Assembly: GCA_049319825.1 (NCBI GenBank)
Contig: JBMORT010000006.1
Location: forward strand, 166,340-230,339
Reading direction: 5' to 3'
DNA from: Patescibacteria group bacterium
GTDB taxonomy: Bacteria; Patescibacteriota; Patescibacteriia; UBA11705; DATKZF01
Length of the DNA: 64,000 nucleotides
Numbering within the stretch: position 1 is the first letter of the stretch; the number at the start of each line of letters is the position of its first letter. This document shows, in pieces, positions 16,854 through 58,233 of the stretch. A program made the position numbers and the translations under genes. The notes below the pieces were generated by a model. The model was not told the DNA's origin and searched no databases. It saw only the letters and a list, made by a program, of their open reading frames with translations.

Positions 16854-16855
16854 TT

Positions 16856-17951: not shown

Positions 17952-18113
17952 CCCCACCCACCACCCTATAATTTTGTAGCCCCGCAAAAAAATCAGATCG
18001 CTCCCCTGCAGTCTTTTTTCATTTGTAAAAGTAAATCAACAGAAACTTATCTCGGCTTGTCTCGCTTGTTCAGTATGCTATAATCAAATAGCCTAATCAT
18101 TAACAAAAAATTT

Positions 18114-30192: not shown

Positions 30193-33100
30193 ATGAGAAG
30201 ATTGGTCGCCGGCACAGTGATCCTGCTTTTCATTATTTTGAAGAGTTCCCAGAGTTTGGCCGGTTATGATTTTATCGTTGTTGAACCAGCCGCAGCGGAA
30301 TATTCTCCCGGAGAAGAAATTACTTTCCATTTCGCATTTTACTTTATCCAAATGGGCATCACTTGCGCCACCATCAGCGGCAGTGTCTATAATGAAAGCG
30401 GCGGTCTGATCGACGCGGCCACGCAGGGGATCGCCAGCGATGGCTCGTATCATCTTTACGCGTACGCGAACGCTCCCAGTGGTTACGGAGTGCACATTTT
30501 TGAAATGATGTTTCATGTTCAGCTTTGTCCGGGATGGCAATTTTCAGACGGTAGCACCAGTATTTCTTACTCCGAGGACATTTTGATTGAGATCGCTGGT
30601 TCAGCAACCAATTCGGACGTCGAGAGCGATATTGATTTGTATGATGAAGATATTTGGGAAGAAATCGGTGACGGAGACGATGTCTTTGAGGTCGGAGAAA
30701 GAATTTGTTTTGAAATCGAGCTGGAAAACGACAGCAGTTCCGATTCGTATGACATCGATGCGGTTTACACCTACAGCAGCGGAGCTGACGTGGATTGGAA
30801 TGATGATGACTGCGGCGTTGATTTCACGTTATCGGAATTGGATGAAGATTGGGTCGATGATGATTTTTGTTTCACTGCCCGGGAGTTGGGCAGAGTCAAG
30901 GTGGAGATTTATGTGAAATTGGAAGGTGCCGCCACTTTGTATAACGTTGATTCTTTTCATATTGATATCGTCTGTCAGCCATCCTGGAGCTGCACGAACT
31001 GGTCAAGCTGCGCCAATTGCTTTCAGACGCGCGTTTGCACCGATTCGCATAATTGCGGCACGACCAGCGGTAAGCCGGCCGAATCCCAGTCTTGCGGTAT
31101 TTTTCCCAATCAGTGTGATCCGTTCGGCAGTCTCTGCGACGGCAACGTGGCCTACGACTGCTTGTACGACAGCTACAATTGCTACTATTACAAATCCAAT
31201 CAGCAGACCTGTCTTTACGGCTGCAGCTTCGGTGAATGCGCGTCCGCGACCGAATGCGCATACACAGATTGTTACTTGGATGATTTGTGGTGCCATAACA
31301 GCGCCGGCATTCGAACGTATATCGGGCAGGACTGCGGAGCACTGCAAGAAGTTGAATATGAATTCATCTGCGATGGAATCGAGCGTTGGGCAATCGCGCA
31401 TGAAACCAACAGAGGTTGTCAATCTGGTCAATGCTATGTCAGTTTGCATGACAGTTCGTATTACTTGGAAACATGTTCCCAGCAATGCGCGAATGGTCAA
31501 TGCGTAAATCCCGATTGTTTGTACACCGCTTGCCTGAATAATGATTTATGGTGCTACAATTCTGCCAATCAGCCGCAGTATCTGGCTGAAGATTGCGGCA
31601 ATGCCAGCGGCACGTCCACGATCAGCGCCGTGTACTGCTCGGAGACCGGAGATTTGGTGAAGCTGAAGAGTTACTCCACCCGCTGTTGCGCCAATGGCGC
31701 TTGCGGCTGGTGCTTTCAATATAATTACGAGCAGGTGCAGGTGGAATGCCCAGCCGGTTGCGATCCGGACACTGATCAATGTTTGGCCTGCGTGCCGGCA
31801 TTCGATTGCTATCAGGCGCAGGTTTGTTTGTCGGATGATACTCAGGAGTACCAGTGCGACGACTTGCTTTGCGGCCAGCCGTCTTACACGGAAATCAGGC
31901 CATGCCAGTATTGCGATGAAAAGTGCGCGCTGGGAGAAAGCTACTGCGCCGGAAATACGGCGTTCACTTGCGTGTCGGTCGGCGGCTGTGATACTGATTG
32001 GCAGTCCGCCTTCTGCGGTTACAGCGAAGAAATTGAGGGAGAGCCGTATTGCAGCGGAAACAATGTAATGAAAGACACTACTGCTACCGATCGCTGGTGC
32101 GCTGACGGAGCGTGCCAACAAGAAATTTCGATCAACGCTGAGGCAATCGCTGATTGCGGTGTTGATACCTCTTTTTCAACCATGCCGTATTGCTTGAACG
32201 ATGACGTTGTATTTGATGACGTCGAAATTTTCAGAGGTTGCTCGAGCGGATCATGCTATGAAGATGAAACCAGCGAATCGCAGATTTTAATGGCATGTGG
32301 CGAGGATACGACAATCAGCGGTGTTAAGTCATGCAACAGCGATGGGAACGCAACTTTTGGCGATATTCACATTGTCAGGGGTTGTGAAAACGCTCAATGC
32401 CACGAGTACCCGATTCAGGATTATTTTGCGGAATTTGTTTGCCCCTGTGGCTGTGATGACGGCGATTGTCTGCCGTGCGACGGCTGCGACTATTTAGACT
32501 GCGGAACCAGCGAGTTCCACTCAACTCTTCCTTACTGCCATCAAGGCAAGGTTGTGTTTGATAATATCAATATCGAGCGCGGCTGCGCTGATTCAGCATG
32601 TTTCGCTGTTGACAACAGCCAGTATTATCAATTGCTCGATGATTGCGGCACCGATGAAATCAATACCAATGTCGCTTTTTGCCGCGATGGTAATATCGCG
32701 GTGGGAAATTCCGGCTATATTCGAGGCTGCAGCGATGCCCAGTGCTATGAAGAATCGATTGACTATGTGGCTTTTATTATCTTGTGCGAATGCGGATGTT
32801 CCGAAGCAGCTTGCCTGCCGTGTTATGAAGCATGCGTCAGTTTGCGTTGCAATCCGGAAGACGGCAATGTCTGGTGCTATGACAGCTGGGGACAGGCGAC
32901 ATCTCTGGAAACAGATTGCGCTCAGAATGAGGTTTGCCTTGGCGGAATTGAATACGATGCCGAGTGCGTTGAACTAATTGCCCCGGTTTGTGATCAGTTT
33001 GGCGTTGGTATTGATCAAACAATCTATCGAGCAGCAGACCGTTTTCCTCTGACTCGAACATTAACCTTGGAGCTTAAGGGATTTTTTGTATATGATGTAG

Positions 33101-39676: not shown

Positions 39677-42600
39677 ATGCTTTCTACAGTTTTTAAAATT
39701 AAAATTTTGAAAAAAAGTTTTTATCGATTTAAAAAGATAATATTTGTAATGTTGTCGTCTTTTATCGTTTTTTTTGCGTCTTTTTTGCAATTTGACATTA
39801 ATTCAGCCATGGCTGCCGATTCCGGATTTCAAAATCCCACGGCCAATGCGGCCGTGACCAGCGGCGCCGGAGACAATAACGGTTATCAGACAAGCCCCAC
39901 CAATGCTTACGCTGACGGAGGAGGAACGGCCATTGACTCAAACAGCGGCTCGAACACCAATGATACTTGCGCCAGCGCCGGAGCGGACAAGCACATTTGG
40001 AGCAATTTTAATTTCAATATACCGCTCGGTTCGAGCATTGACGGCATCGAGCTGCGTCAGGATTTATCGGTGGACAGTCTCAGCGATAGTCCTTTTACAT
40101 GCGTTGCTCTGTCGTGGGACGGCGGAACAACTTGGACTGCCTATAAAATCGCGTCTTTAAGCACCACCTCCGAAACGACATACACCTTTGGGAATGGAAC
40201 TGACAATTGGGGCAGATCGTGGAGTGGGGGAGAATTAAGTAACGCCAATTTTAGAGTGATGATCGCCAATGGAGATACCAATAACGCCAGATCCAGACGG
40301 GATTTTTCTCTTGATTGGATTGCTCCAAAAATTTATTATACTCCACCGACCCTGAATCAATCTGGCTATCGCCTATTTAATAATGCCGATTCCGCCAATG
40401 TGGGCAGTCCGTTGGCCGCGCTTAATTCGGCAGCTCAATTATCTTCGGGAAATGATAATTTCAGGTTGAGGCTGCTGTTGCATGACAGCGGGGTTAATTT
40501 GCCTCTGGCCGGTGATAATTTTAAACTGCAATATGTCGATAAAGGCGTGGGTACTTGCGCCGCTCCCAGTGGAGGCACTCCGGCCTCATACACTGATGTC
40601 ACCGCCGCGACAGCGATTGCTTACAGCAATAACCCGACACCGGCTGACGGCAGCGCTTTAATTGCCAATGCCAATGATCCCAGCCATGGTGCTGACGCGG
40701 TTATCAATCAGACATACGAAGAATTGAATAATTTTACAAATTCCCAAGCTCCGGTCGCGGTTGGTCAGGATGGCCTGTGGGATTTTTCTTTAAAGGATAA
40801 TACCGCGCCGGACGATAAAACATATTGTTTCCGAGTGGTGAAATCAGATGGATCTTTATTAAACGCATATTCGGTTTATCCTGAAATAATGACCGCTGAA
40901 GGCCCGCCCGTGTTAATGAGCGTCGTTGCCAGCGATCCGGACAATTGGGACAGCGTTCTCAGCAATTGGGATAGGCTGACTTTGCTTTTTAATAAAAGCA
41001 CCAATGCTCCGCAGGCCGGAACCAAGACCCAAATTGACGGCTTGATTAATTTTGCCAATCCGCTGGGTGCGAATTATTCAGGCATTTGGCAGACAACTAA
41101 TTTTATCGATGATACGTTGCGAATCACGGTTATCAGCGCCCTAGGCGGCAGTTTAAATATCGGCAATTTGATTTCAATAATCGCGGACGGCACTGAAGAT
41201 TTGAAAAATCAATCGGAGACATCTCCCGCTTCAACGACTTCCGGGAATGTCACCGGTAATTGGGGCTTCCAAAAGGCCTATTACGCCTGTGATGCGGTCG
41301 ATCAGGTATCATACATGGATGTCAATCTCGGAGCTTCTTCAAAGACCTTGTTGGGTAATCTTGGCGCGGCCAACGTTGAAGCCATTGTTTATGATTACAA
41401 TACGCAGACTTTATACGGCGCCAACGCCGGTCAATTGGGCACAATCAACCAAAGCACCGGTGCTTTTTCCGCCTTGCCGAATCCCATCGGCTCCGGCAAC
41501 GGCTCTCTCGGGGTTTTGGCTTTCAATGATGTTGACGGTCTGGCATTTGACCCTTGGACCAGCGTTTTATACGGCACGGTCAGGCGTGATCCGGGCAAGG
41601 ATTTATTGATAAAAATCAATCCGGCTACCGGCGCCAGAATCGCGAATGCATTCGGTACCGGAGTGGATTATGTGGTCATTGATGAAACGGGGGTGTTTGA
41701 CGATGTGGATGATATTAGCATCAACCCCCTCGACGATAAAATGTACACCATTGGCAATCAAGGTCATTTAACGGAAGACCAGCTTCTAATCATCAATAAA
41801 TTAACTGGTGCGATCAGTGTTCAGGCGAATTTCGGCATTATTCCCGGTTATGACATTGAAGGCATGGCCTTTTCCAGCGATGGTCGAATGTGGGGGACGC
41901 GCGGCGTGCCCAATGAATTAGTGCAGGTTATTTACAACACCAACCCTCCAACTATTACCGGCAATGTCAGTTTGGCTCCGGGTTGCGGCGATCCGGAAGG
42001 AATAGACTTCCAGATTACTTCTACCAACACGGTTACCGGAAGGGTCTGGGATGATTTGGACACGGACGGCGTTTTGGACGGCGGGGAACCGGGGTTGGCC
42101 AATGTTACCGTACGGTTATACAAAGATTTAAATAGCAATGGACTGGCGGACAGCCTCGATCTTTTAATTCAATCAAAAGTTACCGATGTTAGCGGAAATT
42201 ATACATTCAAATTTTTGGCTCTTGACGATTTTGTTTTGGAAATCGATGATTCTTCTTTGCCTTCCGGCTACGGGCTGACCACGGATAATTTGGAGGTAGC
42301 GGCTTTCACTTCGATGGGGGAGCTTGATGAAAATAATAATTTCGGCGCTGTTGCCGGTTCTGATTGCGACGGCGACGGCATTCCTGATTTTATTCAGGGG
42401 GTCGGAATAAACGATTTCGATGGAGACACGGTAATCGACAGCTGTGATTTGGACGTGGATAATGACGGCATATTGAATGCGATGGAAAGTTCCAATGATC
42501 GGGATGGTGATTCAATTCCAAATTTTAGAGATGTGGATTCGGATAACGACGGCATCCCTGATGCCAGGGAAGCCAATAGCGGCGTTGCGCCGACCGGTTA

Positions 42601-45600
42601 TAATATCAGTTTGGGATATATGACCGGCACGGATACGGACGGTGACGGTTTACTCGATCAGGTGGACAGCCTGCCGGCCGTTCAGTATGGCGCCAGCGCG
42701 TCTACTTTGCCGATACCCAATACCGATTCGGACGCAGTCCGCGATTTTCTTGACGGGGATTCTGATAATGACGGCATTTTAGACATCATCGAAGCCGGCG
42801 GCGCTGACAGCGATGGAGACGGCGAGATAGACAGTTTCACCGATGTCAACGGTGATGGGTATCATGACCCGCTGAATACATCACCGTTACCGTTACCCAA
42901 TACCGATATTTCAGGAAAGCCTAACTATCTTGATTTGGATTCAGACGGGGATGGTCTGCCTGATTTTAGAGAAGGTCAGTCAACGGCCAGTTACCATGTG
43001 CCGCTGATAATAAGTGATGCTGATGGCAACGGTATCATTGACGCTTATGACAAATCAGCGGGCGGGAATCCTATCGTGCCGGTGGATACAGACAGCGATG
43101 GCATTCCGGATTATCGCGATTTGGACACCGATAATGACAGTCTTACGGATATCAGTATCGGCGAGGGACACGCCAGCGCCACTTTGGTCGGAGCGGATAC
43201 CGATTCGGATGGTATTGATAACGGTTTTGATACCAATAATTCTCCCTCATATTATTTTTTAAATAATACCGCGGTGACCGATAATCCGCCGCCAAATACT
43301 TTCGGCACTTCAGAGTATAACTGGCGCGAGTTTGACGCCGTGCCCTCAGCTGATTTATCTTTGGATAAATTGGTAGACAATAGCGCGCCCAATGTCGGAG
43401 ACACCATTACCTATACCATCACCGTTTCCAATGCCGGGCCGAATAACGCCACCAATGTATCAGTCGTTGATTTATTGCCGGCCGGAGTGACATATTCGAG
43501 CGCGACGCCTTCTCAGGGCAGTTACAATAATATTTCCGGAGTATGGACTGTTGGAACGATTAATAACGGATCGACCGCCAGTTTGCAGATTTCAGCCACG
43601 GTGAATGTCGGAACCGGCAATTCAACAATATCAAATTCGGCTCAGGTTTCAGCGTCTGATCAGGCAGATCCCGATTCGACTCCGAATAACAATATGCCGC
43701 TCGAAGATGATCAAGACAGTGATGACATCGACGTTCAGGCGGCCGATTTATCTTTGGTTAAGATTGTCGATAATGTCACGCCAAATGTTGGGGATATTGT
43801 GAAATACACGATAACCGTTTCCAATGGCGGTCCGGATACGGCCACAAATGCGGTGGTCAAGGATATTTTGCCGGTTGGTGTTACTTATTCCAGTGATAAT
43901 CCGTCGCAAGGAAGTTATAATTCAGGTACGGGCCTATGGACGATTGGCACAATAAATAATGGTGCTAATGCTGTTTTGGAAATCAATGCGGATGTTGATA
44001 CCGGAACGGGCGGCACTACTATTGATAATACCGCTGAAGTATATTCCGTTGATCAAGAAGATCCTGATTCGACCCCAGATAATAATGTCCCTGCCGAAGA
44101 TGACCAGTCGAGCGTTTCAATTACGGTCGAGTCGGCCGATGTCGCCATTACCAAAACGGACGCGGCAGATCCGGTGACCTTGGGCAATAACATTCAATAC
44201 GATGTGACAGTCACCAATAACGGTCCGTCGGACGCGACCAATGTTGATGTGACCGACACATTGCCGGCGGGGGTGACGTATGTCAGCGCCACGCCAAGTC
44301 AGGGAAGTTGTTCGGAATTGGCCGGAACAGTGACGTGTAATTTGAATACCATCAATAATGGCAATAGCGCGACCATCACCATAATCGTCACGCCAACCTC
44401 CAGTGGAAGTTTTACCAATAATATTTCAGTGACGGCCACGGAAAGCGATCCGACGCCGGGCAATAATTCAGATAGCGAAGATACGACAGTCGGAGACGTT
44501 GCTGATTTGTCTTTGACCAAAACTGTCGATATTTCAAATCCAAACGTGGGGGACATGATTACCTATACTATTACCGTTTCCAATGCCGGCGCGGGAAATG
44601 CGACCGGAGTTTCCGTCAAAGATATTTTACCGGCTGGCGTTACGTATTCGAGCGACACTCCTTCTCAGGGTACTTATAATTCGGTTACCGGTGTTTGGAC
44701 ATTGGGCAGTATCGCTAACGGCGCCAGCGCTATCTTGCAGATCAGCGCCATTGTGGATGCAGGCTCTGCCGGAAGCAGCATTGCCAATATTGCTCAAGTA
44801 TCAGCGTCAGACCAGCCCGATCCTGATTCTACCCCAAATAACAATGCTCCGGCCGAAGATGATCAGGACAGCGCTTCCATTACCGTGCAATCAGCTGATT
44901 TGTCTTTAACAAAAACTGTTGATAATGCCGCGCCAAATGAGGGAGATACCATTCAATACACAATTATTCTAAATAATAGTGGACCGGACAATGCGGAAAA
45001 TGTTTCCGTGAAAGATTTGTTGCCGGTCGGAGTGACATATTCTTTTGATATTCCTTCTCAGGGAACATACGATTCAATCACCGGCATTTGGAACATCGGT
45101 AATGTTATTGGTTTAGCCAGCGCCACGCTTCAAATAAGCGCCACAGTCGATATCGGCTCAGCTGGAATTCCCATTGTTAATACAGCGGAAGTGATTGCCA
45201 GCGATCAGGAAGATCCTGATTCGACTCCGAATAATGATGTTCCGGCCGAAGACGATCAAGACAGCGTCATTATAAATTCCAGCGGCGCGGATTTGGAATT
45301 AACCAAGACAGACAGCATTGATCCGATCTACCTGGGGTCAAATATCCTTTATAATATTGCCGTTCTAAATAATGGACCGGCAGACGCCACCGGCGTGATC
45401 GCCACTGACAGCTTACCGGCCGGAGTGACATATGTCAGCGCCACTCCGAGTCAGGGAGCCTGCGCGGAAGCCGCGGGGATGATTACATGCAATTTGAATA
45501 ATATCAGCAATGGCAGCAGTGCGACGATTGCCATTACGGTTATACCGTTGTCTGACGGGATTTATGCGAATAGCGCTTCAGTGTCAGCTTCGGAATCAGA

Positions 45601-48109
45601 TCCGCTGCCCGCCAATAACAGCGATAATGAAAATACGACGGTCGATCCGGTCAGTGATTTATCATTGACAAAGATCATTGATAATAATAATCCAAGTATT
45701 GGAAATTCGATTAAGTATACTTTAACTCTATTAAATTCCGGTCCCAGTCAAGCGACTAATGTGTTTATTAAAGATTTATTGCCGGCGGGCCTGACTTACG
45801 TCGGTAATACACCGTCTCAGGGAACATATGATTCACTGACAGGCGAATGGACGGTCGGAGTCGTTAATAGCGGCGCCAGCGCCACTTTGGAAGTGAGCGC
45901 GACGGTTAACAGCGGCACGGCCGGGCAAGTGATTAATAATACCGGAGAAGTTATTGCCTGCGATCAACATGATTCTGACTCGACTCCCAATAATAATCTG
46001 CCGGCTGAAGATGACCAAGCGAGCGTTAGTTTAACCGTAAAATCCGGTGGCGGCGGCGGTGGCGGTGGCGGTGGCGGATCTGTTCCTCCGGCAGCCTGCG
46101 TGGCGATTTCCGGCGCGAATTCATCATTAAAAATCAATAATGGCGCTGAAAAAACGGATAGTTTAAGCGTACTGTTAAACTTGTCTTATTCCACCGCTAC
46201 TTCGGTGATGTTTAGCGAGAATTCCGATTTTACCGGCGCTTCTTCTCAGCCGGTATCGGGCAGTTTGCCTTTTTCACTCAGTTCGGGAGCGGGAGAAAAA
46301 AAGGTTTACGCCAAATTATCGAATCAGTGTTCGAGTGTTACTGTTGCTGATACCATTTTATATGAATTGCCCGAATCCGAGGAATGCATCGTTAATTGTG
46401 ACCAAATTACTTATAAACTTTATATTGTCAATCCAGACGGTACCGAGAGGCACGCGGGAACCAATTATGTTCAGCAGGAGCAAGTCGCGGACGGCATTGT
46501 ATTATATAAATTCGAAGACAAAGGCTTGGATTTTGATTATAACGACGTCTTTGTTCAGGTAGACGACCGCAATTGTTCCGGTGTAAAGTTTAGCGTCACC
46601 CGAGAGCTGGAAGCAAGCTGGCACCATCAGATAGGAGTCAATATTTTTTACCAAGGGAAGCTGTCAAAACATATTTTACTCTGGTCGGATTCTCACACTT
46701 CATTCGGAAATGAAAGGACGTATGATTTTTCAACCGACCAGAGTCTCTGCGAAGAGTCAATCGAGCCGATCGAAGAGCCGGAGATCGAGCCTGAACCGGA
46801 AGTGCCAGTCGAGTGCGTCGTTGACTGCGACAAAGTCAAGTTTGATCTATTCATTGTCAATCCCGACGGCACCGAGAGACATTCTGGTACCAGGTTTGTC
46901 GAGGAAGAAAAGGTTTCCGACGGTGTGATATTATATAAATTCGAAGATAAAGGCGAAGATTTTGATTACAATGATGTATTCGTGCAGGTGGACCGTCGCG
47001 ATTGCGCCAATGTGATTTTCAGCGTTACCAAAGAGCTCGAAGCCAGCTGGCATCATCAAATAAAAGTCAGATTATCCGGCAATGGAATAGTCGGCGGCGC
47101 CATCACTCTGTGGCCCGATTCCCACATGTCGTTTGGCAATGAGCGGTCGCTCGATGTTTCCGCCGATCAGAGTCTTTGCCAGCAGTGCGTAACTGATTGC
47201 CAAAGAGTGACTTACGATTTATACATTGTTAATCCTGACGGTACCGAGAGGCGCATGAACAGCCGTTATGCTCAGATTGAAGATCAGGGCAATGGCGTGA
47301 TTTTGGTGAAATTTGAAGACAAGGGAAATGACTTCGATTACAATGACGTTTTAATAAAAGTTGACAAGAGCACTTGTGAAATTATCAAAGTGACTTCGCT
47401 TCAGCTGGAAGCCGGTTGGCATCATCAGATAAAAATCAAGCTGCTGTATGACGGGATCGAGCGAAATGACGTTTTGCTTTGGGCTGATTCGCATCTGTCA
47501 GTGGATCAGTCGAAAGAGGTGAATTTGACCGATTACTCTCGGCTCTGTGAAGTTGATTTGCTGGATAAAGTGGAACAGGCCGCGGTTACAGTTTTTGAGC
47601 ATATTAATTTTTTGGGCAGGTCTCAGACTTTCGTCGCCGGTCAAAAAGTGCCTGAGCTGACTGTTTTTTCTTTCAATAATTTAATATCATCCGTGAAAAT
47701 CGTAGGCAATGCGGCGGTAGATTTTTTCACTGAGGCGTTGTACTCTGGCAGATCAGAGCGTTTTAGCCAAGACGACTTTGATTTAAGAAATAATTCTATC
47801 GGAAACGATACGGTGACGTCGCTTCAAGTGTCTTTACGCGCTCAAAATATTCCATCCGCATCGGCCGCAGCGCTCCGCTGCGGCGGAAATGTTGTCTTCA
47901 GCGAAATGACAGCCGGCGATCAGGGATCGAATGTTGTCTCGCTTCAGGAATTGTTGAAATGTTTGGGATTTTTTCCCCAAGGTCAGCCAGCTACCGGATA
48001 TTTCGGACCGGTTACGGAGAATGCGCTTAAAAATTTTCAGCTGTCAAATGGGATTGAGCCATCCGGGTATTTGGATCAGGCGACCCTGAGCGCGATCAAT
48101 GATTTATAA
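39677..48109 (+). CDS. giant (2810 aa) multi-domain surface protein / putative adhesin
   Basis: N-terminal signal/anchor helix. Aspartate-rich Ca-binding DxDxDG(I/L)xD repeats are TSP3-like (about aa 880-1200). About 8 tandem DUF11 repeats follow (LSLDKLVDN...VTYSS..PSQG...G.W..G). Then come a poly-Gly linker (GGGGGGGGGGGS), 3 tandem DUF4114-like repeats (VNPDGTER...FEDKG.DFDYNDV...WHHQI) and a beta/gamma-crystallin-like domain (VFEHINFLGRSQTF). The C-terminus is a PG_binding_1 domain (LQELLKCLGF...GYFGPVTENALKNFQ). Confidence 0.9.
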   Translation: MLSTVFKIKILKKSFYRFKKIIFVMLSSFIVFFASFLQFDINSAMAADSGFQNPTANAAVTSGAGDNNGYQTSPTNAYADGGGTAIDSNSGSNTNDTCASAGADKHIWSNFNFNIPLGSSIDGIELRQDLSVDSLSDSPFTCVALSWDGGTTWTAYKIASLSTTSETTYTFGNGTDNWGRSWSGGELSNANFRVMIANGDTNNARSRRDFSLDWIAPKIYYTPPTLNQSGYRLFNNADSANVGSPLAALNSAAQLSSGNDNFRLRLLLHDSGVNLPLAGDNFKLQYVDKGVGTCAAPSGGTPASYTDVTAATAIAYSNNPTPADGSALIANANDPSHGADAVINQTYEELNNFTNSQAPVAVGQDGLWDFSLKDNTAPDDKTYCFRVVKSDGSLLNAYSVYPEIMTAEGPPVLMSVVASDPDNWDSVLSNWDRLTLLFNKSTNAPQAGTKTQIDGLINFANPLGANYSGIWQTTNFIDDTLRITVISALGGSLNIGNLISIIADGTEDLKNQSETSPASTTSGNVTGNWGFQKAYYACDAVDQVSYMDVNLGASSKTLLGNLGAANVEAIVYDYNTQTLYGANAGQLGTINQSTGAFSALPNPIGSGNGSLGVLAFNDVDGLAFDPWTSVLYGTVRRDPGKDLLIKINPATGARIANAFGTGVDYVVIDETGVFDDVDDISINPLDDKMYTIGNQGHLTEDQLLIINKLTGAISVQANFGIIPGYDIEGMAFSSDGRMWGTRGVPNELVQVIYNTNPPTITGNVSLAPGCGDPEGIDFQITSTNTVTGRVWDDLDTDGVLDGGEPGLANVTVRLYKDLNSNGLADSLDLLIQSKVTDVSGNYTFKFLALDDFVLEIDDSSLPSGYGLTTDNLEVAAFTSMGELDENNNFGAVAGSDCDGDGIPDFIQGVGINDFDGDTVIDSCDLDVDNDGILNAMESSNDRDGDSIPNFRDVDSDNDGIPDAREANSGVAPTGYNISLGYMTGTDTDGDGLLDQVDSLPAVQYGASASTLPIPNTDSDAVRDFLDGDSDNDGILDIIEAGGADSDGDGEIDSFTDVNGDGYHDPLNTSPLPLPNTDISGKPNYLDLDSDGDGLPDFREGQSTASYHVPLIISDADGNGIIDAYDKSAGGNPIVPVDTDSDGIPDYRDLDTDNDSLTDISIGEGHASATLVGADTDSDGIDNGFDTNNSPSYYFLNNTAVTDNPPPNTFGTSEYNWREFDAVPSADLSLDKLVDNSAPNVGDTITYTITVSNAGPNNATNVSVVDLLPAGVTYSSATPSQGSYNNISGVWTVGTINNGSTASLQISATVNVGTGNSTISNSAQVSASDQADPDSTPNNNMPLEDDQDSDDIDVQAADLSLVKIVDNVTPNVGDIVKYTITVSNGGPDTATNAVVKDILPVGVTYSSDNPSQGSYNSGTGLWTIGTINNGANAVLEINADVDTGTGGTTIDNTAEVYSVDQEDPDSTPDNNVPAEDDQSSVSITVESADVAITKTDAADPVTLGNNIQYDVTVTNNGPSDATNVDVTDTLPAGVTYVSATPSQGSCSELAGTVTCNLNTINNGNSATITIIVTPTSSGSFTNNISVTATESDPTPGNNSDSEDTTVGDVADLSLTKTVDISNPNVGDMITYTITVSNAGAGNATGVSVKDILPAGVTYSSDTPSQGTYNSVTGVWTLGSIANGASAILQISAIVDAGSAGSSIANIAQVSASDQPDPDSTPNNNAPAEDDQDSASITVQSADLSLTKTVDNAAPNEGDTIQYTIILNNSGPDNAENVSVKDLLPVGVTYSFDIPSQGTYDSITGIWNIGNVIGLASATLQISATVDIGSAGIPIVNTAEVIASDQEDPDSTPNNDVPAEDDQDSVIINSSGADLELTKTDSIDPIYLGSNILYNIAVLNNGPADATGVIATDSLPAGVTYVSATPSQGACAEAAGMITCNLNNISNGSSATIAITVIPLSDGIYANSASVSASESDPLPANNSDNENTTVDPVSDLSLTKIIDNNNPSIGNSIKYTLTLLNSGPSQATNVFIKDLLPAGLTYVGNTPSQGTYDSLTGEWTVGVVNSGASATLEVSATVNSGTAGQVINNTGEVIACDQHDSDSTPNNNLPAEDDQASVSLTVKSGGGGGGGGGGGSVPPAACVAISGANSSLKINNGAEKTDSLSVLLNLSYSTATSVMFSENSDFTGASSQPVSGSLPFSLSSGAGEKKVYAKLSNQCSSVTVADTILYELPESEECIVNCDQITYKLYIVNPDGTERHAGTNYVQQEQVADGIVLYKFEDKGLDFDYNDVFVQVDDRNCSGVKFSVTRELEASWHHQIGVNIFYQGKLSKHILLWSDSHTSFGNERTYDFSTDQSLCEESIEPIEEPEIEPEPEVPVECVVDCDKVKFDLFIVNPDGTERHSGTRFVEEEKVSDGVILYKFEDKGEDFDYNDVFVQVDRRDCANVIFSVTKELEASWHHQIKVRLSGNGIVGGAITLWPDSHMSFGNERSLDVSADQSLCQQCVTDCQRVTYDLYIVNPDGTERRMNSRYAQIEDQGNGVILVKFEDKGNDFDYNDVLIKVDKSTCEIIKVTSLQLEAGWHHQIKIKLLYDGIERNDVLLWADSHLSVDQSKEVNLTDYSRLCEVDLLDKVEQAAVTVFEHINFLGRSQTFVAGQKVPELTVFSFNNLISSVKIVGNAAVDFFTEALYSGRSERFSQDDFDLRNNSIGNDTVTSLQVSLRAQNIPSASAAALRCGGNVVFSEMTAGDQGSNVVSLQELLKCLGFFPQGQPATGYFGPVTENALKNFQLSNGIEPSGYLDQATLSAINDL
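43330..46030 (+). repeat. DNA-level tandem array of about 8 DUF11-repeat coding units (~375-390 bp each) inside the giant gene
   Basis: Recurring nucleotide blocks such as GATTTATCTTTG..., CCGGATTCGACTCC/CCTGATTCGACTCC and GAAGATGATCAAG are visible by eye. Boundaries are approximate. Confidence 0.6.
46370..47560 (+). repeat. 3 tandem DUF4114-like coding repeats (~390-420 bp) inside the giant gene
   Basis: TGTGACCAAATTACTTATAAACTTTATATTGTCAATCCAGACGGTACCGAGAGGCAC recurs as ...GTCAATCCCGACGGCACCGAGAGACAT and ...GTTAATCCTGACGGTACCGAGAGGCGC. Confidence 0.65.
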
Positions 48110-49503: not shown

Positions 49504-49557
49504 GCTTTGTTGTTGACATTTTATGCCAATTTGATATAATACTGTCTATTAAATTAT

Positions 49558-49643
49558 GGGTCGGTACCAAAGTGGTCAACTGGGGCAGACTGTAAATCTG
49601 CTGGCGCAAGCCTTCGGAGGTTCGAATCCTTCCCGGCCCACCA
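49558..49643 (+). tRNA. tRNA-Tyr (anticodon GTA), type-II long variable arm, CCA encoded
   Basis: Hand-folded. Acceptor GGGTCGG/CCGGCCC, anticodon arm GCAGA-CTGTAAA-TCTGC, long variable arm TGGCGCAAGCCTTCGG, T-arm GGAGG-TTCGAAT-CCTTC, discriminator A plus CCA. Terminator hairpin GCTGGCAGGCCAGC plus T-run at 49666-49689. Confidence 0.9.
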
Positions 49644-49883
49644 GCCTTCGCTCCTTCGGAGCTTCGGCTGGCAGGCCAGCTTGCTTTTTAGCTAAGTTGG
49701 TAAATTATAAATTCAGCCAAGAGGCTGTTTTTTTTAATAAAAACAAGGACTATTTGATAACGGCAATAAAAGATGAAAATGATTGCCAACAGGTAATTAT
49801 TATGTTATTATCATGAAGTCCTTTGACATTTAAATACGCTTAGCGGCTGTTGAGACCTTGAAATAAAGGTTTCAGCAAGCTGA

Positions 49884-50957
49884 GTGTCCGAACCCGAACG
49901 GAGCAGGAGCATGGAATGCACGGGTCGTAGTGTCTGCTGGACGCTGATAGTTGCGGTTATCACTTGCGGATGTTCGGTGTCGACCACGAGAGGCGATGCC
50001 CAATTGGAAAAAGACCTGTCATATATCGACGATGCTCAAAGCGATACCATTCCCGTTGACGATTTATTGTACAATTATAATGACACTGTCAATGACAGTG
50101 ATCATGAAATAGTCGAAGACTGTGCCGATCCGGGTGATCAAATTGAATTGAATGATTTTGCAACCATTGAAGCGGTGACAGAAATCGATGGGGTGGAAAT
50201 TTCACTGGAAACTGAAGTGGAACCGGATAGCTGCCACCCTGCGTGCCAAGGTCGCCAGTGCGGCCCGGACGGTTGTGGCAGTGAATGCGGTATTTGCTCA
50301 GATGATCAAATTTGCCTTGACGGCCAGTGCGCTTGCGAGAGTGTTGATTGCGACGACCAATGCTGCGATGCAAAGGAAGTATGCTTCCACGGCCAGTGTT
50401 GTCTTGCTGATTGCGCCTTTGCCGAATGCGGCTCGGACGGTTGTGGAGGAATGTGCGGTGATTGCATCGCCGATGAAATTTGTCACCCGACCGATCGCAT
50501 TTGCGTGGCGGTCACCACCAGCGTTCATATCTCGGGAAATCTCGACAAAAGAGATTTCTTTATGGTCGAAGAGTTCGATCCAGCAAATCCTTATGGCAGT
50601 TCGAATTATGCGATGTCATTCAATATTCGCGACGCCTCCAACAAACTTGTTGAGGCGATGATTTTTTTCGGGAAGTACGGAGACAATTTATGGGAATGGA
50701 ACATCGTGGTTGACGGCCAGACTCAATCATCCGGCATCGCCGGTGAAAACATCGTTTTGGGAAACGGTCAATTGTATTTTGATAATGATGGAGAATTGAT
50801 TCCGAACATGGAGCTGGATTTTATTACTGTTAACCCGGCCAATGCCTTGCCGACTACCATTTTCATTGATTTTGGCTATGATCAAGTCAGTTTTTTCAGT
50901 GTCACTCAGTACTCGAATTTATACACTCTGGATGTTGTAGTGTATCCTGATCTGTAA
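49884..50957 (+). CDS. secreted Cys-rich protein, hypothetical
   Basis: N-terminal hydrophobic signal (SVCWTLIVAVITCGCS) and a Cys-dense core (CQGRQCGPDGCGSECGICSDDQICLDGQCACESVDCDDQCCD...CGSDGCGGMCGDC). RBS GGAGCAGGAGC. Confidence 0.6.
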   Translation: MSEPERSRSMECTGRSVCWTLIVAVITCGCSVSTTRGDAQLEKDLSYIDDAQSDTIPVDDLLYNYNDTVNDSDHEIVEDCADPGDQIELNDFATIEAVTEIDGVEISLETEVEPDSCHPACQGRQCGPDGCGSECGICSDDQICLDGQCACESVDCDDQCCDAKEVCFHGQCCLADCAFAECGSDGCGGMCGDCIADEICHPTDRICVAVTTSVHISGNLDKRDFFMVEEFDPANPYGSSNYAMSFNIRDASNKLVEAMIFFGKYGDNLWEWNIVVDGQTQSSGIAGENIVLGNGQLYFDNDGELIPNMELDFITVNPANALPTTIFIDFGYDQVSFFSVTQYSNLYTLDVVVYPDL

Positions 50958-50963: not shown

Positions 50964-52784
50964 ATGTGCCGCGGGCGAAAGCAGGTCGCTTTCAAACCCG
51001 CAATCAACAGCGCCAGGAAAGGTGGAAACCCCATGAGAAAAACGCTGGTTGCGCTGATCGCATTTCTATTTTGTGCCAACGCTTATGCTTATGATGTTCA
51101 TCCGTATCAGCACATGGAAGATCCGATTTTCGTCAATGTCACGGATCCGGTAAACCTTCCCATTCTCGAAGATACCATCATCATGGCCGATGACAGCATC
51201 ATTATTGCCGTTGCCGAGAATCGATCCGGCACGGCAAATGACGGTATTTATATTTATCGTTCGATTGATGGCGGGCAGAGTTGGACATATCAATCAAAGG
51301 TTGGCGGCGGGCAGTTTCCGTAAAGAAAGCATGTCTCGTTCGCTCGCTATGGAAACACCTTGTATATGCTGCATACCAATGTGAATGATTTAACCAATTG
51401 TTCTGAAAATCATCATTATCCTTATTTTTCACGAAGCACCGATTTTGGAGCTACTTGGGTTCACAAAGGCGCAATCACCGCGCTAAGTACCACTGATTGC
51501 GATCACAATTTTAAGGGAAAATTACAATTGCTTGTCAGCCCGGTCAGCCATTATTTGGTGGCCGCATATTCTGGCACACAAACAAAGATCAATCAGGGCT
51601 CAGTCAAGCCCAGGTACATCATCACACGAACCAGTACCGATGGCGGGGATAATTGGTATCCGGAAAATCAATTTGTCTCTCAGTGGGATTCATCTGCCAT
51701 TGAGCTACTTGATTTGGAGTTTGCTGATAATGATTATTTGGTATTGGTTCATGGGGCGTTTGACGCAACCAGTGAAACCGCTCATGTTTACGCGGATGTT
51801 TCCGCCAACTATGGCGTGTATGATTATGATTATGATTCGGCGATTCTAACCAGCAATTATAGCTCCAACCACCATGCGACATCGGTTACCGGTGGGGACG
51901 CTCAATTCTATGTGGATCAATCCGGAAACAAATCCGTCAAAATCGTTTTTTCCACGGAGGACGACTATCGGTACTCGGAATTGAAATATACCACAATCCT
52001 CGGCTGGTATTTTGATGACGTGGATGGACATCCAGGTTATACTCCCAATTATGTTCTTGGTTATACGCCATTGGGAGGAGCGGCGTTATATAATTGTGTC
52101 AAAGATCCTCACTTGACGGTTGGAACGGAAAACGCTTTGGTTTTGAGTTACAGATATGATACTTATACCGATGATGTTGTCGGTTCGAATATCTATTTTA
52201 AGAGAATCGATTTGCCAAGGCTGCTAACCAATCGTCTCAACAATGAATTCGGTTCCCTTGCCTCGTACAATGACCGGCAATTCCGGGTGCTGAGATTCGT
52301 CGGAAACAGACTATACGGATTTTACACCGATTATGGATATCGGGACACAGCCAATGATGTCAAGGAATTGCGAATCGGGCTGACTGTCTCTGATCCGAAC
52401 AAAGAAGACGACATTCCCGGGTATCAGGATAATATCGTCGTTCGATTTTTGGATGATACTGTTTTTTCGGAAACATTGACCGGCGGTGCAGCGGTCGCTT
52501 GGCGATACGGCAATTTCTCCAATCCGTTCCCCGGCCGGCCAGTGAAAGTCGACATGTGGTTGGAGTACACCTCTCTCGAGCCGGGCGGCGGTTCGCAAAT
52601 TTTGGAAAACGTCGCCTGGAACGACGTTTTATTGGACATGTCCAGCCAAGGCAGTATCAGCGTGGAGAAGCTCTATTTCGGCGGTATCCAGGAAGGCACG
52701 ACCTTGTTGACCGTGCACATCGGCGATGTGGACACTCACACGTCGTGGAGCTCCGACTCCTTTGTGTTCACGCTGGCGTTTTAA
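50964..52784 (+). pseudogene. BNR/Asp-box repeat (sialidase-fold-like) secreted protein interrupted by a single in-frame TAA at 51321-51323
   Basis: ORFs 50964..51323 and 51360..52784 are in the same frame and separated only by the TAA. Asp-box motifs SIDGGQSW (before the stop) and STDFGATW, TSTDGGDNW (after) continue the same repeat series. There is an N-terminal signal peptide. Confidence 0.55.
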
Positions 52785-52800
52785 TTTGATTATTCATTAG

Positions 52801-52827
52801 GGACGAAACCATGTTTCGTCCTTTTTT
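52801..52827 (+). terminator. rho-independent terminator (GGACGAAACCATGTTTCGTCC plus T-run)
   Basis: Perfect 8-bp stem plus T6, immediately after the BNR gene. Confidence 0.65.
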
Positions 52828-52918
52828 AATGTTAAAATCGAGATAATCGGCGCGCTTAGATGCGCGAGCCGGTTTATGCTATAATGTAATCAATCAAACC
52901 CCTGATAATAAGAAGATT

Positions 52919-55900
52919 ATGCCAGACAAAAAATTCATTGACGAAAAAATAAAGGCGGGAGTGGAGGAATACGAGGAAGAGAAAAAGGCTAAACAAGAAG
53001 AATTGGCCAAAGAGGCGGATGAAGCCATCAGTGCCATGTTTTCGGCAGAGGCTGCGACAAATGATTCTGTTATCGAGCAATTGAAAAAGATCCCAAACAG
53101 CAAAAAGGATCAGTATTTTGCCGCTTTACTGAGAGTCCATGAACACGCGTTATTTTTTTTGCAGGCGTTCAGCGGCTTGAGCGCGCGTTCGCAAAAATAT
53201 TTGGCGGAATTCATTGAGAAACAGGGCTATATCGATACTTCTCAGATCAATAATATTTTCAATGCTTTTAATGAAATAACCGATCGTCAACTCCGAAGAT
53301 GGATTTTTGAATATGTGCCTCCGCGACAGATATTGAAGTATAAATCAAAACTGCCGGATTTATCTGAGCAGAAATTGCTGTCTTTGGTCGAGGTCCGAAA
53401 TTTTTCCAGAAAAGATTTGGATTGGCCGGTAATTCTCGAATATATAGAATATTTTCCCTCGATCGACAGAAAAACGGTGATTGATAAAATTATCTCCAGG
53501 TATTCGATTGATCAATACATACGCCTATTATTTATAAAAAAGGACGCGCTTGGCATCACTGTCGAGGAATTGCTCGAATTACTATTTTCCAATAAAAATT
53601 TTTATTCAATTTGCGACAGCTTAGATTTGATTGATCCCAAATACCATCAGCAAATAGCCGATACCCTGTGTGAAACTGATAGCGGAGCCGCAGTGGCATT
53701 GAGAAGCGCGGCACTATTTAAAAATGTTGACGGAGAGAAAATTTTAAGAAAAGTGATTAATGATTATAATGAGGATCAATGGGGGTTGGGCAGAATAATT
53801 GATTCTTTTCAATCAGTCGCCAAGGCATGGGGCCGGCAAATTCCGAAAGAGATCGTCGAACAGATATTCGATAAAGATTATCTTGCTTTAGCCGGGAACA
53901 TCGATGAATTGGGCGATAACGCTGACAAAGAGAAACTTGAAGAAAAATTATGGAATAATCGAGAATTTAAAATACTCATAACAACTTGTCGATCTTATGG
54001 AATTGTACCGGACGCAAAATTCGCTGAAAGATTAATTAGCAACGATGGCGCCGTAGAAGTTTTGGACAATATCAAGCATTTCGATTTATTGCCGAGAGCC
54101 GTTTATTTGGAATTGGAAGGGATCTCTCCCAAAAGAACATACGCCTCATTGCATCATTTCGAAGGTTTAAATAAGGACGACGTGTTTCGAGCCATGACAG
54201 GATCGGTTAATGAGGATATTGTGCACAAGATAATAAAAGATTTCCAAAATTTCGAAGGATTGAATCTCGATTACGAATTCGCCGAGCGTTTGATCGGAAC
54301 GGGATACATCGGCGTCTTATACAAATATTTGAACCAATTTCAAGAATTAACCCCTCATGTTATAACTGAATTGGCTCTTTCAGACGCGCAGTTGGTAAAA
54401 TCCGGTGATTCTGATCTGGAGTTTTTTCTCCGTGAACTAAATCAGTTTCAATCTTTAGATGAAAAAGATTATCAATCGATAGCCAATAAAATTTTGCGCA
54501 GCCGCCATCCGCGTTTATTGGCGACTTTCGCGAACCGATTCATCGGAAAAATTCCGGATAAAGATTTTCAGCTCATCGTGGAAAAGTTGATTGGGAAAGG
54601 AGAGGCGGCATCCGTGTGCTGGAATTGGAATAGCATCGCCCGCGCGAAACTTGATTATTCGAAAATCGCCGGATTATTGATAGATGCCGGAGCTTTCGCG
54701 CATGTCGCCGAGCATAGAGAGTTTTATCCAGCGATACAAAAAGACCGCGGGCTCGCGGAAAAAATTTGGGATGGATTTTTAAATTGTAACGAATGGGAGT
54801 TATACCAAGTGTCACAAATGGAAGAAATTGACAGCTTATTTAAAACTCCAATCGACAAAAATTTTAGGCGAGCATTTGAAATCGTCGGATACTCCCTGAC
54901 AAAAGAGATTTATGAAACGATAAAAAAAATAAAAGACGGATCGCTCGAAAAAGATGAAATGGATAATCTGGGCGTCACGGAAATCGGTGATAAAGGCCTG
55001 CGGCAGCTCAATGAACGCTTGAATGCTTTTAAAACGGAAATTTTGAAAGACGAATTCGACCCGTCGATTATGGAGAAATCAACGCTGTTGCGGCAATATT
55101 TCAAGCAATACGTCAATTTTAAAAATAGTCAGTTTGGCGAGCACGGTGACGAGGAATTCGGAGCAATATTGGATGTTTATGTTTATTCCAGAAGGAGAAG
55201 GGATTTCAGGCCGCTTCCTGAATATTTTACACCGAGCGGAAAGGTGATGGTTCTCCAAGCGAACCGGAAGAACCAGGATGCCTTTGAATATTCAAAGCCG
55301 TTCAAGGATCGTTATCAATCAATGAAAGCGTCGCTAGCTGAGGCGATTCGCATGCTTGATAATAAAAATTCCGAGATTGAACTGCTGGCAATGATCGAAC
55401 GCATAAGGATGGAAGTGATAAGTAATTTCCGAGAAAAGTTATCCAAAGCCGCGGATAATCCCCGGGCGATGGGAAATTTACAAAAAAACATCAGCGATTT
55501 AGAGACGCTGAATCTAAATGGCATAAGCGAATTCCAAGAAAATTTTGCAGTTTTGTCGCCATATAAAGAATTTCATAACGCGCTCAGACAAATGGCTTTT
55601 TATTTGGCGCTTCTTAAATTCGAGAATTTTAAAAATCGGGCCCGATCGATCGCCACTCAAGACGAGCCGGATTTTGATGATATCGGTTGGATGATAAATT
55701 TTATCGAAAACATTGTCAACGAAGAAACCTGGGGAGAAATTCTCAATAATAACAAGGCGATCAAGGCATTTCGATCATTGACGAATATTAAAGCATTGGA
55801 GGAAGAATTTTCCAGAGCGCAAAATCAGAAGTCCGATAAAAAGACAGCGCTGGAATTCGTGCCGACGCGAGGGATTCTAATGGAATTTTCCGGACATATA

Positions 55901-56344
55901 TCAGATGCTTGCTGGGCTTCAACGTACAGGAGCATTGCCAGCGCCTTTCCTAATTTTATTGCTGTCATAATCAGGCAAAACATGGGAACAAAATTCGAGA
56001 GGCTGGCCGGCGCCAGCATGTTGATAGAAACGGAAGCGTCCGACAGAACGCCGCTGCTGGTGATCAGAGGATTAAATCCGATAGAGAATTCAATCAATTC
56101 ATTGCAAGTTCAGGATTTTTTTAAAAAATTTGTCGAATATGCGAAAGAGTTGGCTAAAAAAGGCGGCCGAAGATTGGGCATCGTCATCGATGATCACTCT
56201 GGCGGCTCCGCCACCAATAGGCCAGTTTTATTTGAATATTTGGAGGGATTAGCATCGGAATTAACTCCGATCCGTTTACGCACGAAAAGCGATACGACTT
56301 TCAACGGCTACGATATTGTGGACAATACTTTCCTGTTGGACTAG
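52919..56344 (+). CDS. large (1141 aa) predominantly alpha-helical hypothetical protein
   Basis: Long ORF with no recognised catalytic motif. An extended -10 (TGCTATAATG) lies upstream and nagZ follows within 7 nt. Confidence 0.65.
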   Translation: MPDKKFIDEKIKAGVEEYEEEKKAKQEELAKEADEAISAMFSAEAATNDSVIEQLKKIPNSKKDQYFAALLRVHEHALFFLQAFSGLSARSQKYLAEFIEKQGYIDTSQINNIFNAFNEITDRQLRRWIFEYVPPRQILKYKSKLPDLSEQKLLSLVEVRNFSRKDLDWPVILEYIEYFPSIDRKTVIDKIISRYSIDQYIRLLFIKKDALGITVEELLELLFSNKNFYSICDSLDLIDPKYHQQIADTLCETDSGAAVALRSAALFKNVDGEKILRKVINDYNEDQWGLGRIIDSFQSVAKAWGRQIPKEIVEQIFDKDYLALAGNIDELGDNADKEKLEEKLWNNREFKILITTCRSYGIVPDAKFAERLISNDGAVEVLDNIKHFDLLPRAVYLELEGISPKRTYASLHHFEGLNKDDVFRAMTGSVNEDIVHKIIKDFQNFEGLNLDYEFAERLIGTGYIGVLYKYLNQFQELTPHVITELALSDAQLVKSGDSDLEFFLRELNQFQSLDEKDYQSIANKILRSRHPRLLATFANRFIGKIPDKDFQLIVEKLIGKGEAASVCWNWNSIARAKLDYSKIAGLLIDAGAFAHVAEHREFYPAIQKDRGLAEKIWDGFLNCNEWELYQVSQMEEIDSLFKTPIDKNFRRAFEIVGYSLTKEIYETIKKIKDGSLEKDEMDNLGVTEIGDKGLRQLNERLNAFKTEILKDEFDPSIMEKSTLLRQYFKQYVNFKNSQFGEHGDEEFGAILDVYVYSRRRRDFRPLPEYFTPSGKVMVLQANRKNQDAFEYSKPFKDRYQSMKASLAEAIRMLDNKNSEIELLAMIERIRMEVISNFREKLSKAADNPRAMGNLQKNISDLETLNLNGISEFQENFAVLSPYKEFHNALRQMAFYLALLKFENFKNRARSIATQDEPDFDDIGWMINFIENIVNEETWGEILNNNKAIKAFRSLTNIKALEEEFSRAQNQKSDKKTALEFVPTRGILMEFSGHISDACWASTYRSIASAFPNFIAVIIRQNMGTKFERLAGASMLIETEASDRTPLLVIRGLNPIENSINSLQVQDFFKKFVEYAKELAKKGGRRLGIVIDDHSGGSATNRPVLFEYLEGLASELTPIRLRTKSDTTFNGYDIVDNTFLLD

Positions 56345-57594: not shown

Positions 57595-58233
57595 TTATGG
57601 TCGGTGTTTTTTTGCGAGTTCGATCAGCTCGACTCGAGTGATGTCGAACATATCTTCGAATTGTTTATTTGATAAGAACATGTTCTTTTTCTGAGGTGTG
57701 ACCCTCTTTGATCGAAGGAAAATCAATCTGCCGCGAAGAAGTTTGGGTGAAAACATTAAATAAGAAGGATTTTCTCTGATATAGAAATTCATTTCTTCAA
57801 ATAAGCAAAGCAGGGCGATTGTGCGCTCAGCCGTGTAGCCGAGGATTGACGGCAGTTTGACAACCATTTTGATAACATCATCTTTGGCAAAGCCAAATTC
57901 AATCAAATTCTGAAGTAAAGAATTGCTGCGCTCAGCCGTGCAGCTGAGGATTGCCGGCATTTTAATAACCATTTTGATAACATCATCTTTGTCAAAGCCA
58001 AAGTCAATTAAATTCTGAAGCAAGCCATTGGTGCGCTCAGCCGTGAAGCCGAGGATTGCCGGCAGTTTGATAACCATTTTAATCAAGTCGTCTTTATCAA
58101 AGCCAAAGTCTTCCAGGGCTTTCAGATGTTTTACTATGGTTTCGGCCGGAATGATGTATTGTTTATCAATGTCAGCGATATCAATGCCGTATTCAGCTGA
58201 AATTGCAGCCTGTTCCGGGTAATCGGTTGCCAT
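57595..58233 (-). CDS. mTERF-like helical-repeat protein (bacterial)
   Basis: Three or more tandem ~32-aa repeats LQNLIDFGFDKDDVIKMVIKMPAILSCTAERSN / LQNLIEFGFAKDDVIKMVVKLPSILGYTAERT match the mTERF pattern (L..LGF....I.K.V...P.IL..S.E). The repeats are also near-identical at DNA level (~96-bp units at about 57840-58130). Confidence 0.5.
   Translation of the reverse strand: MATDYPEQAAISAEYGIDIADIDKQYIIPAETIVKHLKALEDFGFDKDDLIKMVIKLPAILGFTAERTNGLLQNLIDFGFDKDDVIKMVIKMPAILSCTAERSNSLLQNLIEFGFAKDDVIKMVVKLPSILGYTAERTIALLCLFEEMNFYIRENPSYLMFSPKLLRGRLIFLRSKRVTPQKKNMFLSNKQFEDMFDITRVELIELAKKHRP

What the first reader, a model, noticed from the sequence alone, without database searches (positions are those of the whole stretch)
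50964..52784. Single in-frame TAA (51321-51323) splitting a BNR/Asp-box repeat exported protein
The 119-aa and 474-aa ORFs are in the same frame and separated only by one TAA. Asp-box motifs (S-x-D-G-x-x-W) continue across the break, so they were once one ~600-aa signal-peptide-bearing sialidase-fold protein.

The possibilities are a recent nonsense mutation (pseudogenisation of a glycan-binding or hydrolysing surface protein), a sequencing error, or programmed stop-codon readthrough. In the pseudogene case the downstream part might still be expressed from the internal Met at 51360.
Basis: seen in the sequence. Interest (0 to 1): 0.5.

Follow-up and report, generated by a model that had tools for sequence, protein, structure and literature searches.

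The report
Stop codon splits orphan BNR-repeat gene
A gene for an exported Asp-box (BNR) repeat protein in an uncultured Patescibacteria genome is cut in two by one in-frame TAA stop codon; this is most likely an ordinary recent knockout mutation, and no related gene exists to compare it with.

Summary
A single TAA at 51321-51323 separates two same-frame coding stretches. The first is a 96-aa piece starting at ATG 51033 (not 50964), with a strong ribosome-binding site, a signal peptide and one Asp-box. The second is a 486-codon open stretch with two more Asp-boxes, annotated from ATG 51366 as 472 aa.

The Asp-boxes lie at residues 77, 135 and 201, which is blade-like spacing, and the stop is residue 97. 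A weak Pfam BNR_2 match and a BLASTP alignment to a BNR protein both run across the stop. The BNR_2 match appears only when the pieces are joined.

TAA is the commonest stop in the window (25 of 39 genes), so the codon is not reassigned. No RNA structure or Rfam match lies nearby. An independent Logan assembly is identical over 7.4 kb, TAA included.

The ortholog test cannot be done. The gene has no homologues beyond weak Asp-box matches among about 15 billion proteins, and related genomes show no syntenic copy.

Best reading: a recent nonsense mutation, or a strain variant, in an orphan exported BNR-repeat gene. "Sialidase" is not supported: there is no RIP motif, Pfam scores are below threshold and the structure models were unusable. 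This is ordinary and of low interest.

The parts
51019..51026 (+). Shine-Dalgarno-like AAGGTGGA, 7 nt upstream of ATG 51033
   Evidence: Duplex energy with the anti-SD is -9.4 kcal/mol. It is one of only about 4 strong SD sites among 39 genes.
51033..51320 (+). N-terminal fragment, 96 codons (NCBI ACOZBH_03195): signal peptide, one propeller-blade-like unit and Asp-box 1
   Evidence: Coding score is +0.34 bits/codon in this frame only.
51033..51089 (+). Predicted Sec signal peptide MRKTLVALIAFLFCANAYA (basic n-region, hydrophobic core, A-Y-A before the cleavage site)
   Evidence: Read from the sequence. Inference only; no signal-peptide predictor was available.
51261..51284 (+). Asp-box 1, SIDGGQSW (joined residues 77-84)
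   Evidence: Motif scan. Pfam BNR stretch at residues 75-85.
51321..51323 (+). In-frame TAA (joined residue 97), followed by A
   Evidence: Identical in Logan contig SRR32167788_53744.
51324..51365 (+). 14 open codons (RKHVSFARYGNTLY) between the stop and the first ATG. They read as the first strand(s) of the next blade, not as an intergenic spacer.
   Evidence: Aligns to the matching stretch of P0002. Too short for a codon-usage signal of its own.
51366..52784 (+). C-terminal fragment, 472 codons plus stop (NCBI ACOZBH_03200). It has no signal peptide. It holds Asp-boxes 2 and 3 and about 375 aa with no recognisable domain.
   Evidence: Coding score is +0.40 bits/codon and uniform along its length.
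51435..51458 (+). Asp-box 2, STDFGATW (joined residues 135-142)
51633..51656 (+). Asp-box 3, STDGGDNW (joined residues 201-208)
52799..52833 (+). Intrinsic-terminator-like hairpin (11 bp stem, 3 nt loop) plus T-run, 15 nt after the ORF's stop

Best explanation
A single-base substitution changed a sense codon to TAA in what was one gene. AAA, GAA, CAA, TAT, TAC, TTA and TCA are each one step from TAA. The original gene encoded a 583-aa Sec-exported protein whose N-terminal part is an Asp-box (BNR) repeat, probably a beta-propeller.

Translation from ATG 51033 now ends after 96 residues, giving a signal peptide plus roughly one blade, which cannot form a closed propeller. Any product started at TTG 51360 or ATG 51366 would lack both the signal peptide and the first blade. 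The gene is therefore most likely inactivated in the sequenced population.

The event is recent, because the 486 codons after the stop carry no second lesion and keep normal codon usage.

Shown here: the stop, the shared frame, the motifs and their spacing, alignments that cross the stop, ordinary use of TAA as a terminator, and agreement of two assemblies. Inferred: the propeller fold, export, loss of function and recency.
For: - TAA at 51321-51323 in frame with both ORFs.
- Asp-boxes at residues 77, 135 and 201 with the stop at residue 97, so the blade-like period continues through the break.
- The Pfam BNR_2 match (E 4.5e-4, residues 56-223) exists only for the joined protein. Neither fragment gives it at E<=10.
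- The BLASTP HSP of the joined protein against BNR protein P0002 spans residues 27-144 across the stop, at 41.2 bits against 35.4 bits for the N fragment alone.
- The strong SD and signal peptide are present only at the upstream start. The terminator lies only after the downstream ORF, so the layout is one transcription and translation unit.
- The same-frame coding signal is +0.34 and +0.40 bits/codon on the two sides, and GC3 is typical of the genome.
- TAA ends 25 of 39 genes, 12 of them as TAA-A, so it is a normal terminator here.
- An independent assembler (Logan, SRR32167788) gives identical sequence over 7419 nt.
- No other obviously broken gene was seen in the 64 kb window.
Against: - No ortholog exists to show an intact ancestral form.
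- The domain evidence is below Pfam's curated cut-offs (21.1 bits against 27, and 20.1 against 31.4).
- Crossing the stop adds only about 6 bits to the BLASTP alignment.
- Both AlphaFold single-sequence models were unusable (pLDDT about 30), so fold continuity is not shown structurally.
- The two assemblies probably derive from the same reads, so a read-level artefact or a minority allele is not excluded.
Confidence: 0.6

Rival explanations
1. The TAA is not the organism's fixed sequence. It is a sequencing or consensus error, or a strain-level polymorphism chosen by the assemblers, and the real or majority gene is intact.
For: This is a metagenome-assembled genome. Internal stops in assemblies are often technical and depend on coverage and assembler (PMC11017572). 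The downstream 486 codons are perfectly intact with normal codon usage, as expected if the gene is actually functional. No read data could be inspected.
Against: Two different assemblers, the one behind the NCBI MAG and the one behind Logan, give identical sequence over 7.4 kb including the TAA. The change is substitution-type in a non-repetitive context (CCG TAA AGA), not a homopolymer indel. Other genes in the window look intact.
Confidence: 0.2
2. This is an old and tolerated two-gene arrangement. A small exported 77-aa mature peptide and a separate 472-aa cytoplasmic protein are both expressed, the second by coupled re-initiation at TTG 51360 or ATG 51366.
For: NCBI annotates two separate hypothetical proteins rather than a pseudogene. 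Most genes in this genome start without an SD, so the lack of one at 51366 is no obstacle. The restart codons lie only 36-45 nt after the stop. Same-frame adjacent genes are common in the window.
Against: The blade period and the Pfam and BLASTP alignments run straight through the stop and the 14 'spacer' codons. One blade cannot close a propeller. The large piece would lose its export signal. Neither piece has a stand-alone homologue.
Confidence: 0.1
3. Programmed or leaky readthrough of the TAA produces some full-length 583-aa exported protein alongside the 96-aa product.
For: The downstream frame is fully preserved. Nothing in the data formally excludes low-level near-cognate decoding.
Against: TAA is the commonest terminator and TAA-A the commonest context in this genome. 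The flanking RNA folds no better than shuffled sequence (z = -0.5). No Rfam element was found. No suppressor-type tRNA lies in the window; it holds only Gln-TTG, Thr-GGT and Tyr-GTA. Reassignment of TAA is not known in bacteria (general knowledge).
Confidence: 0.04

Closest known systems
Asp-box (BNR) beta-propeller proteins, Pfam PF02012 / PF13088, sialidase clan (Quistgaard & Thirup 2009, PMC2716378)
   Same: Three canonical S-x-D-x-G-x-(T/S)-W boxes spaced 58-66 residues apart, each preceded by hydrophobic strand-like segments. An N-terminal signal peptide, as in many exported members. Weak BNR and BNR_2 profile matches.
   Different: Scores are below the Pfam gathering thresholds. Only the first ~210 residues show the repeat, and the remaining ~375 residues match nothing. 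There are no homologues beyond the motif among about 15 billion proteins. The fold is not confirmed.
GH33 bacterial sialidases (e.g. Micromonospora viridifaciens, PDB 1EUR/1W8N)
   Same: Local similarity around one Asp-box blade (query residues 167-237 against chain residues 31-94).
   Different: E-values are 0.17-0.6, which is not significant. No R-[ILV]-P motif occurs anywhere in the protein. No alignment was good enough to locate catalytic residues.
Nonsense-mutation pseudogenes (split genes) in bacterial genomes and MAGs
   Same: A single in-frame stop, a domain interrupted mid-way, and a downstream part that lacks its own export signal.
   Different: The usual proof, an intact ortholog, is unavailable because the gene is an orphan. 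The database annotation lists two genes rather than a pseudogene.

Membership tests
BNR/Asp-box repeat proteins (Pfam PF02012, PF13088) | Two or more Asp-box motifs S-x-D-x-G-x-T/S-W | tested here: met
   Three exact motifs at joined residues 77, 135 and 201. Consensus taken from PMC2716378.
BNR/Asp-box repeat proteins (Pfam PF02012, PF13088) | Profile score at or above the Pfam gathering cut-off | tested here: not met
   BNR 21.1 bits against a cut-off of 27. BNR_2 20.1 bits against a cut-off of 31.4, with E 2-5e-4.
BNR/Asp-box repeat proteins (Pfam PF02012, PF13088) | Beta-propeller fold with the Asp-box in the loop between strands 3 and 4 of a blade | tested here: inconclusive
   AlphaFold2 single-sequence models had pLDDT 30.2 and 29.8. 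No alignment could be built because there are no homologues.
GH33 sialidase | N-terminal (F)RIP motif, which contributes to the arginine triad | tested here: not met
   No R-[ILV]-P in the 583 residues.
GH33 sialidase | Significant sequence similarity to characterised sialidases | tested here: not met
   Best PDB match 1EUR has E 0.17 at 13.7 bits. No NCBIfam match.
Nonsense-mutation pseudogene | The in-frame stop interrupts a domain that is continuous in relatives | tested here: met
   The BNR_2 alignment at residues 56-223 and the P0002 HSP at residues 27-144 both cross residue 97. BNR_2 is found only in the joined sequence. The evidence is statistically modest.
Nonsense-mutation pseudogene | Orthologs carry an intact single ORF | tested here: inconclusive
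   No orthologs in 5.8 billion clusters, in 1.84 billion representatives, in GTDB genomes syntenic through PGI, or in JGI contigs by a DNA pattern.
Nonsense-mutation pseudogene | The stop is supported by the reads | not testable with these tools
   Only indirect support: a second assembly (Logan, SRR32167788) is identical.
Programmed stop-codon readthrough / codon reassignment | The stop codon is rarely used as a terminator, or sits in a leaky context with a stimulatory structure | tested here: not met
   TAA ends 25 of 39 genes, 12 of them as TAA-A. Fold z-score -0.5. No Rfam hit.
Programmed stop-codon readthrough / codon reassignment | The stop and the downstream frame are conserved in relatives | not testable with these tools
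   No relatives exist in the searched collections.

The most novel reading that the evidence does not exclude
The TAA is deliberately leaky or used for re-initiation. One locus would then yield a small secreted one-blade Asp-box peptide plus either a full-length exported protein or a cytoplasmic large fragment. That would be a stop-codon-based two-product gene in a Patescibacteria lineage. A milder version is that the joined protein founds a new, lineage-restricted family of Asp-box surface proteins with a novel ~375-aa C-terminal region.
Probability: 0.04. Interest if true: 0.55.

Novelty: new member of a known kind. Interest (0 to 1): 0.12.

Why it matters
It matters little beyond annotation. 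The two NCBI entries, ACOZBH_03195 (96 aa) and ACOZBH_03200 (472 aa), are better described as one interrupted gene. If the stop is real and fixed, this Patescibacteria population has recently lost one exported Asp-box repeat protein, a plausible surface or glycan-interaction factor. That fits the rapid turnover of lineage-specific surface proteins in these reduced, host-attached bacteria. The gene's complete lack of homologues limits any wider lesson.

Tried and rejected
- Ortholog comparison, sequence searches. The joined protein against 5.8 billion clusters returned only itself and one weak BNR hit. phmmer of the post-stop fragment against 1.84 billion representatives returned only itself and one weak hit.
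- Ortholog comparison, synteny and DNA. The downstream neighbour is also a singleton, so no synteny anchor exists. PGI-anchored loci from GTDB genomes reach 55% identity at best, and none has a BNR homologue within 8 kb. A DNA pattern with NNN at the stop gave 0 hits in JGI metagenome contigs.
- Structure prediction. The post-stop fragment gave pLDDT 30.2, and the joined mature protein with X at the stop gave 29.8. Both are unusable, so no fold search was run.
- Codon reassignment. Rejected, because TAA is the main terminator.
- Readthrough-stimulating RNA structure or a known RNA element. None found.
- Using absence of an SD at 51366 as evidence against restart. Rejected as uninformative, because most genes here lack an SD.
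- Sialidase assignment. Rejected for lack of the RIP motif and of any significant match.
- MAFFT alignment of the four putative blades. It aligned the Asp-boxes but was otherwise too noisy to use.

Full report
**1. The observation**

The sequence shows TAA at 51321-51323. Translating 50964-52786 in one frame gives a single internal stop...SKVGGGQFP*RKHVSFARYGNTLYMLHTN.... The mechanical ORF list gives 50964..51323 (119 aa) and 51360..52784 (474 aa, TTG start) in the same frame.

Three exact Asp-box motifs are present. SIDGGQSW lies before the stop, and STDFGATW and STDGGDNW lie after it.

Two details need correcting:
- The probable start is ATG 51033, not 50964. It has an SD-like AAGGTGGA (-9.4 kcal/mol against a window median of -0.55) and is followed directly by a typical signal peptide, MRKTLVALIAFLFCANAYA. 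NCBI and Logan both call a 96-aa product from there.
- Position 51360 is a TTG. The first ATG is 51366, which is the annotated start of the 472-aa product.

**2. Is it more than chance?**

Frame agreement alone is not. A scan for single stops flanked by at least 90 open codons on both sides finds four other cases in the window that are simply adjacent genes: 14385, 50955, 56342 and 60983.

The evidence lies in continuity of the protein:
- The Asp-boxes are at joined residues 77, 135 and 201. The spacings of 58 and 66 residues are the usual blade period, and the stop falls at residue 97 between boxes 1 and 2.
- In Asp-box propellers the motif sits between strands 3 and 4 of a blade (PMC2716378). 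The 14 codons between the stop and the first ATG (RKHVSFARYGNTLY) therefore occupy the position of the first strands of the next blade, not of an intergenic spacer.
- Pfam BNR_2 aligns to residues 56-223 (E 4.5e-4), across the stop, in the joined sequence only. Neither fragment alone gives this match even at E<=10.
- BLASTP of the joined sequence against the only remote relative found (P0002, a JGI 'BNR repeat-like domain' protein) gives an HSP over residues 27-144. It scores 41.2 bits, against 35.4 bits for the N fragment alone.
- Codon-usage log-odds favour the same frame on both sides (+0.34 and +0.40 bits/codon) and are uniform along the C fragment. GC3 is typical of the genome.
- The gene signals fit one unit: a strong SD and signal peptide only at the 5' end, and an 11-bp terminator hairpin plus T-run only after 52784.

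All these pieces of evidence are individually modest. The Pfam scores are below the gathering cut-offs.

**3. Is the stop real?**

The window comes from a Patescibacteria MAG with NCBI locus tags ACOZBH_03195 and ACOZBH_03200. A 39-kb contig assembled independently by Logan from run SRR32167788 is 100% identical over the 7419 nt fetched, TAA included.

The context (CCG TAA AGA AAG) is not a homopolymer or a repeat, and other genes in the window look intact. Assembler-specific error, which is a documented source of spurious internal stops (PMC11017572), is therefore unlikely. Because both assemblies probably use the same reads, a read-level artefact or a minority allele cannot be excluded.

**4. 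Recoding?**

TAA terminates 25 of 39 genes in the window, 12 of them in the same TAA-A context. The RNA around the stop folds no better than shuffled sequence (z = -0.5). Rfam finds only the upstream tRNA-Tyr. The window's tRNAs are ordinary: Gln-TTG, Thr-GGT and Tyr-GTA. Nothing suggests reassignment or programmed readthrough.

**5. Orthologs**

None exist in the collections available:
- The joined protein found only its own C fragment and one weak BNR hit among 5.8 billion clusters.
- An exhaustive phmmer of the post-stop fragment against 1.84 billion representatives found itself and one weak hit, P0003 at E 5e-4.
- Both annotated pieces are singleton clusters.
- The 1141-aa downstream neighbour is also a singleton.
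- PGI-anchored loci from GTDB species genomes are at most 55% identical (Uhrbacteria-like MAGs) and carry no homologue within 8 kb.
- A DNA pattern spanning the stop, with NNN at the codon, has no match in JGI metagenome contigs.

**6. What the protein is**

It is an exported protein of 583 aa. Its first ~210 residues carry three Asp-box blades, and the remaining ~375 residues match no Pfam, NCBIfam or PDB entry.

Calling it a sialidase is not justified. PDB sialidase matches have E 0.17-0.6 and there is no R-[ILV]-P motif.

Both AlphaFold2 single-sequence runs gave pLDDT of about 30, so the fold is inferred from the motifs only.

**7. Mechanism**

The most likely explanation (about 0.6) is a recent single-base nonsense mutation. 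The 96-aa product, a signal peptide plus about one blade, cannot close a propeller. Any product restarted at 51360 or 51366 would lack both the export signal and the first blade. The function is therefore probably lost.

The lesion appears recent. The 486 downstream codons carry no second lesion and keep normal codon usage.

Rivals:
- Artefact or strain variant, about 0.2.
- A tolerated ancestral two-gene arrangement, about 0.1.
- Programmed readthrough, about 0.04.

**8. Verdict**

This is a real in-frame stop splitting an orphan Asp-box repeat gene. It is an ordinary kind of event, useful mainly as an annotation correction. The interest score is low.

Noticed in passing
window 57598-58233 (-): A 212-aa protein matches Pfam mTERF (PF02536) at E 1e-22, above the gathering cut-off. 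The family is best known from organelles, so it is unusual in a Patescibacteria genome.
   Followed up: no
window 39677-48109 (+): A 2810-aa giant protein with at least 7 DUF11 repeats (694 bits) and a C-terminal PG_binding_1 domain. Probably a cell-surface protein.
   Followed up: no
window 30193-35655 (+) and 52919-56344 (+): Two large ORFs of 1820 aa and 1141 aa. The 1820-aa ORF has no Pfam match at E <= 0.001, and the 1141-aa ORF only chance-level ones (E >= 0.037, all below the curated cut-offs). The 1141-aa protein is a singleton among 5.8 billion clusters. Like the BNR gene, they appear lineage-restricted.
   Followed up: partly
window 49911-50957 (+): The gene immediately upstream encodes a Cys-rich protein with repeated CGxDGCGxxCGxC-like motifs and a C-terminal FlgE_D2-like domain (E 4.5e-7). 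It ends with TAA 50955-50957 in the same frame as the BNR ORF. It probably shares a promoter-like site at 49783-49811 with it.
   Followed up: partly
window 49513-49643 (+): tRNA-Tyr(GTA) at 49558-49643 is preceded by a perfect TTGACA-16-TATAAT promoter consensus with an extended TG, at 49513-49540.
   Followed up: no
window 14000-18000: A low-GC stretch (0.36-0.38 against about 0.44 elsewhere). It contains an HTH plus SocA/Panacea antitoxin-like gene at 16856-17623, followed by about 2 kb without long ORFs. This may be an acquired island.
   Followed up: no
whole window: Only about 4 of 39 genes have a strong Shine-Dalgarno site (starts at 640, 10810, 30193 and 51033). Most have A/T-rich leaders such as AATTTATG. 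Translation initiation in this genome seems largely SD-independent.
   Followed up: partly
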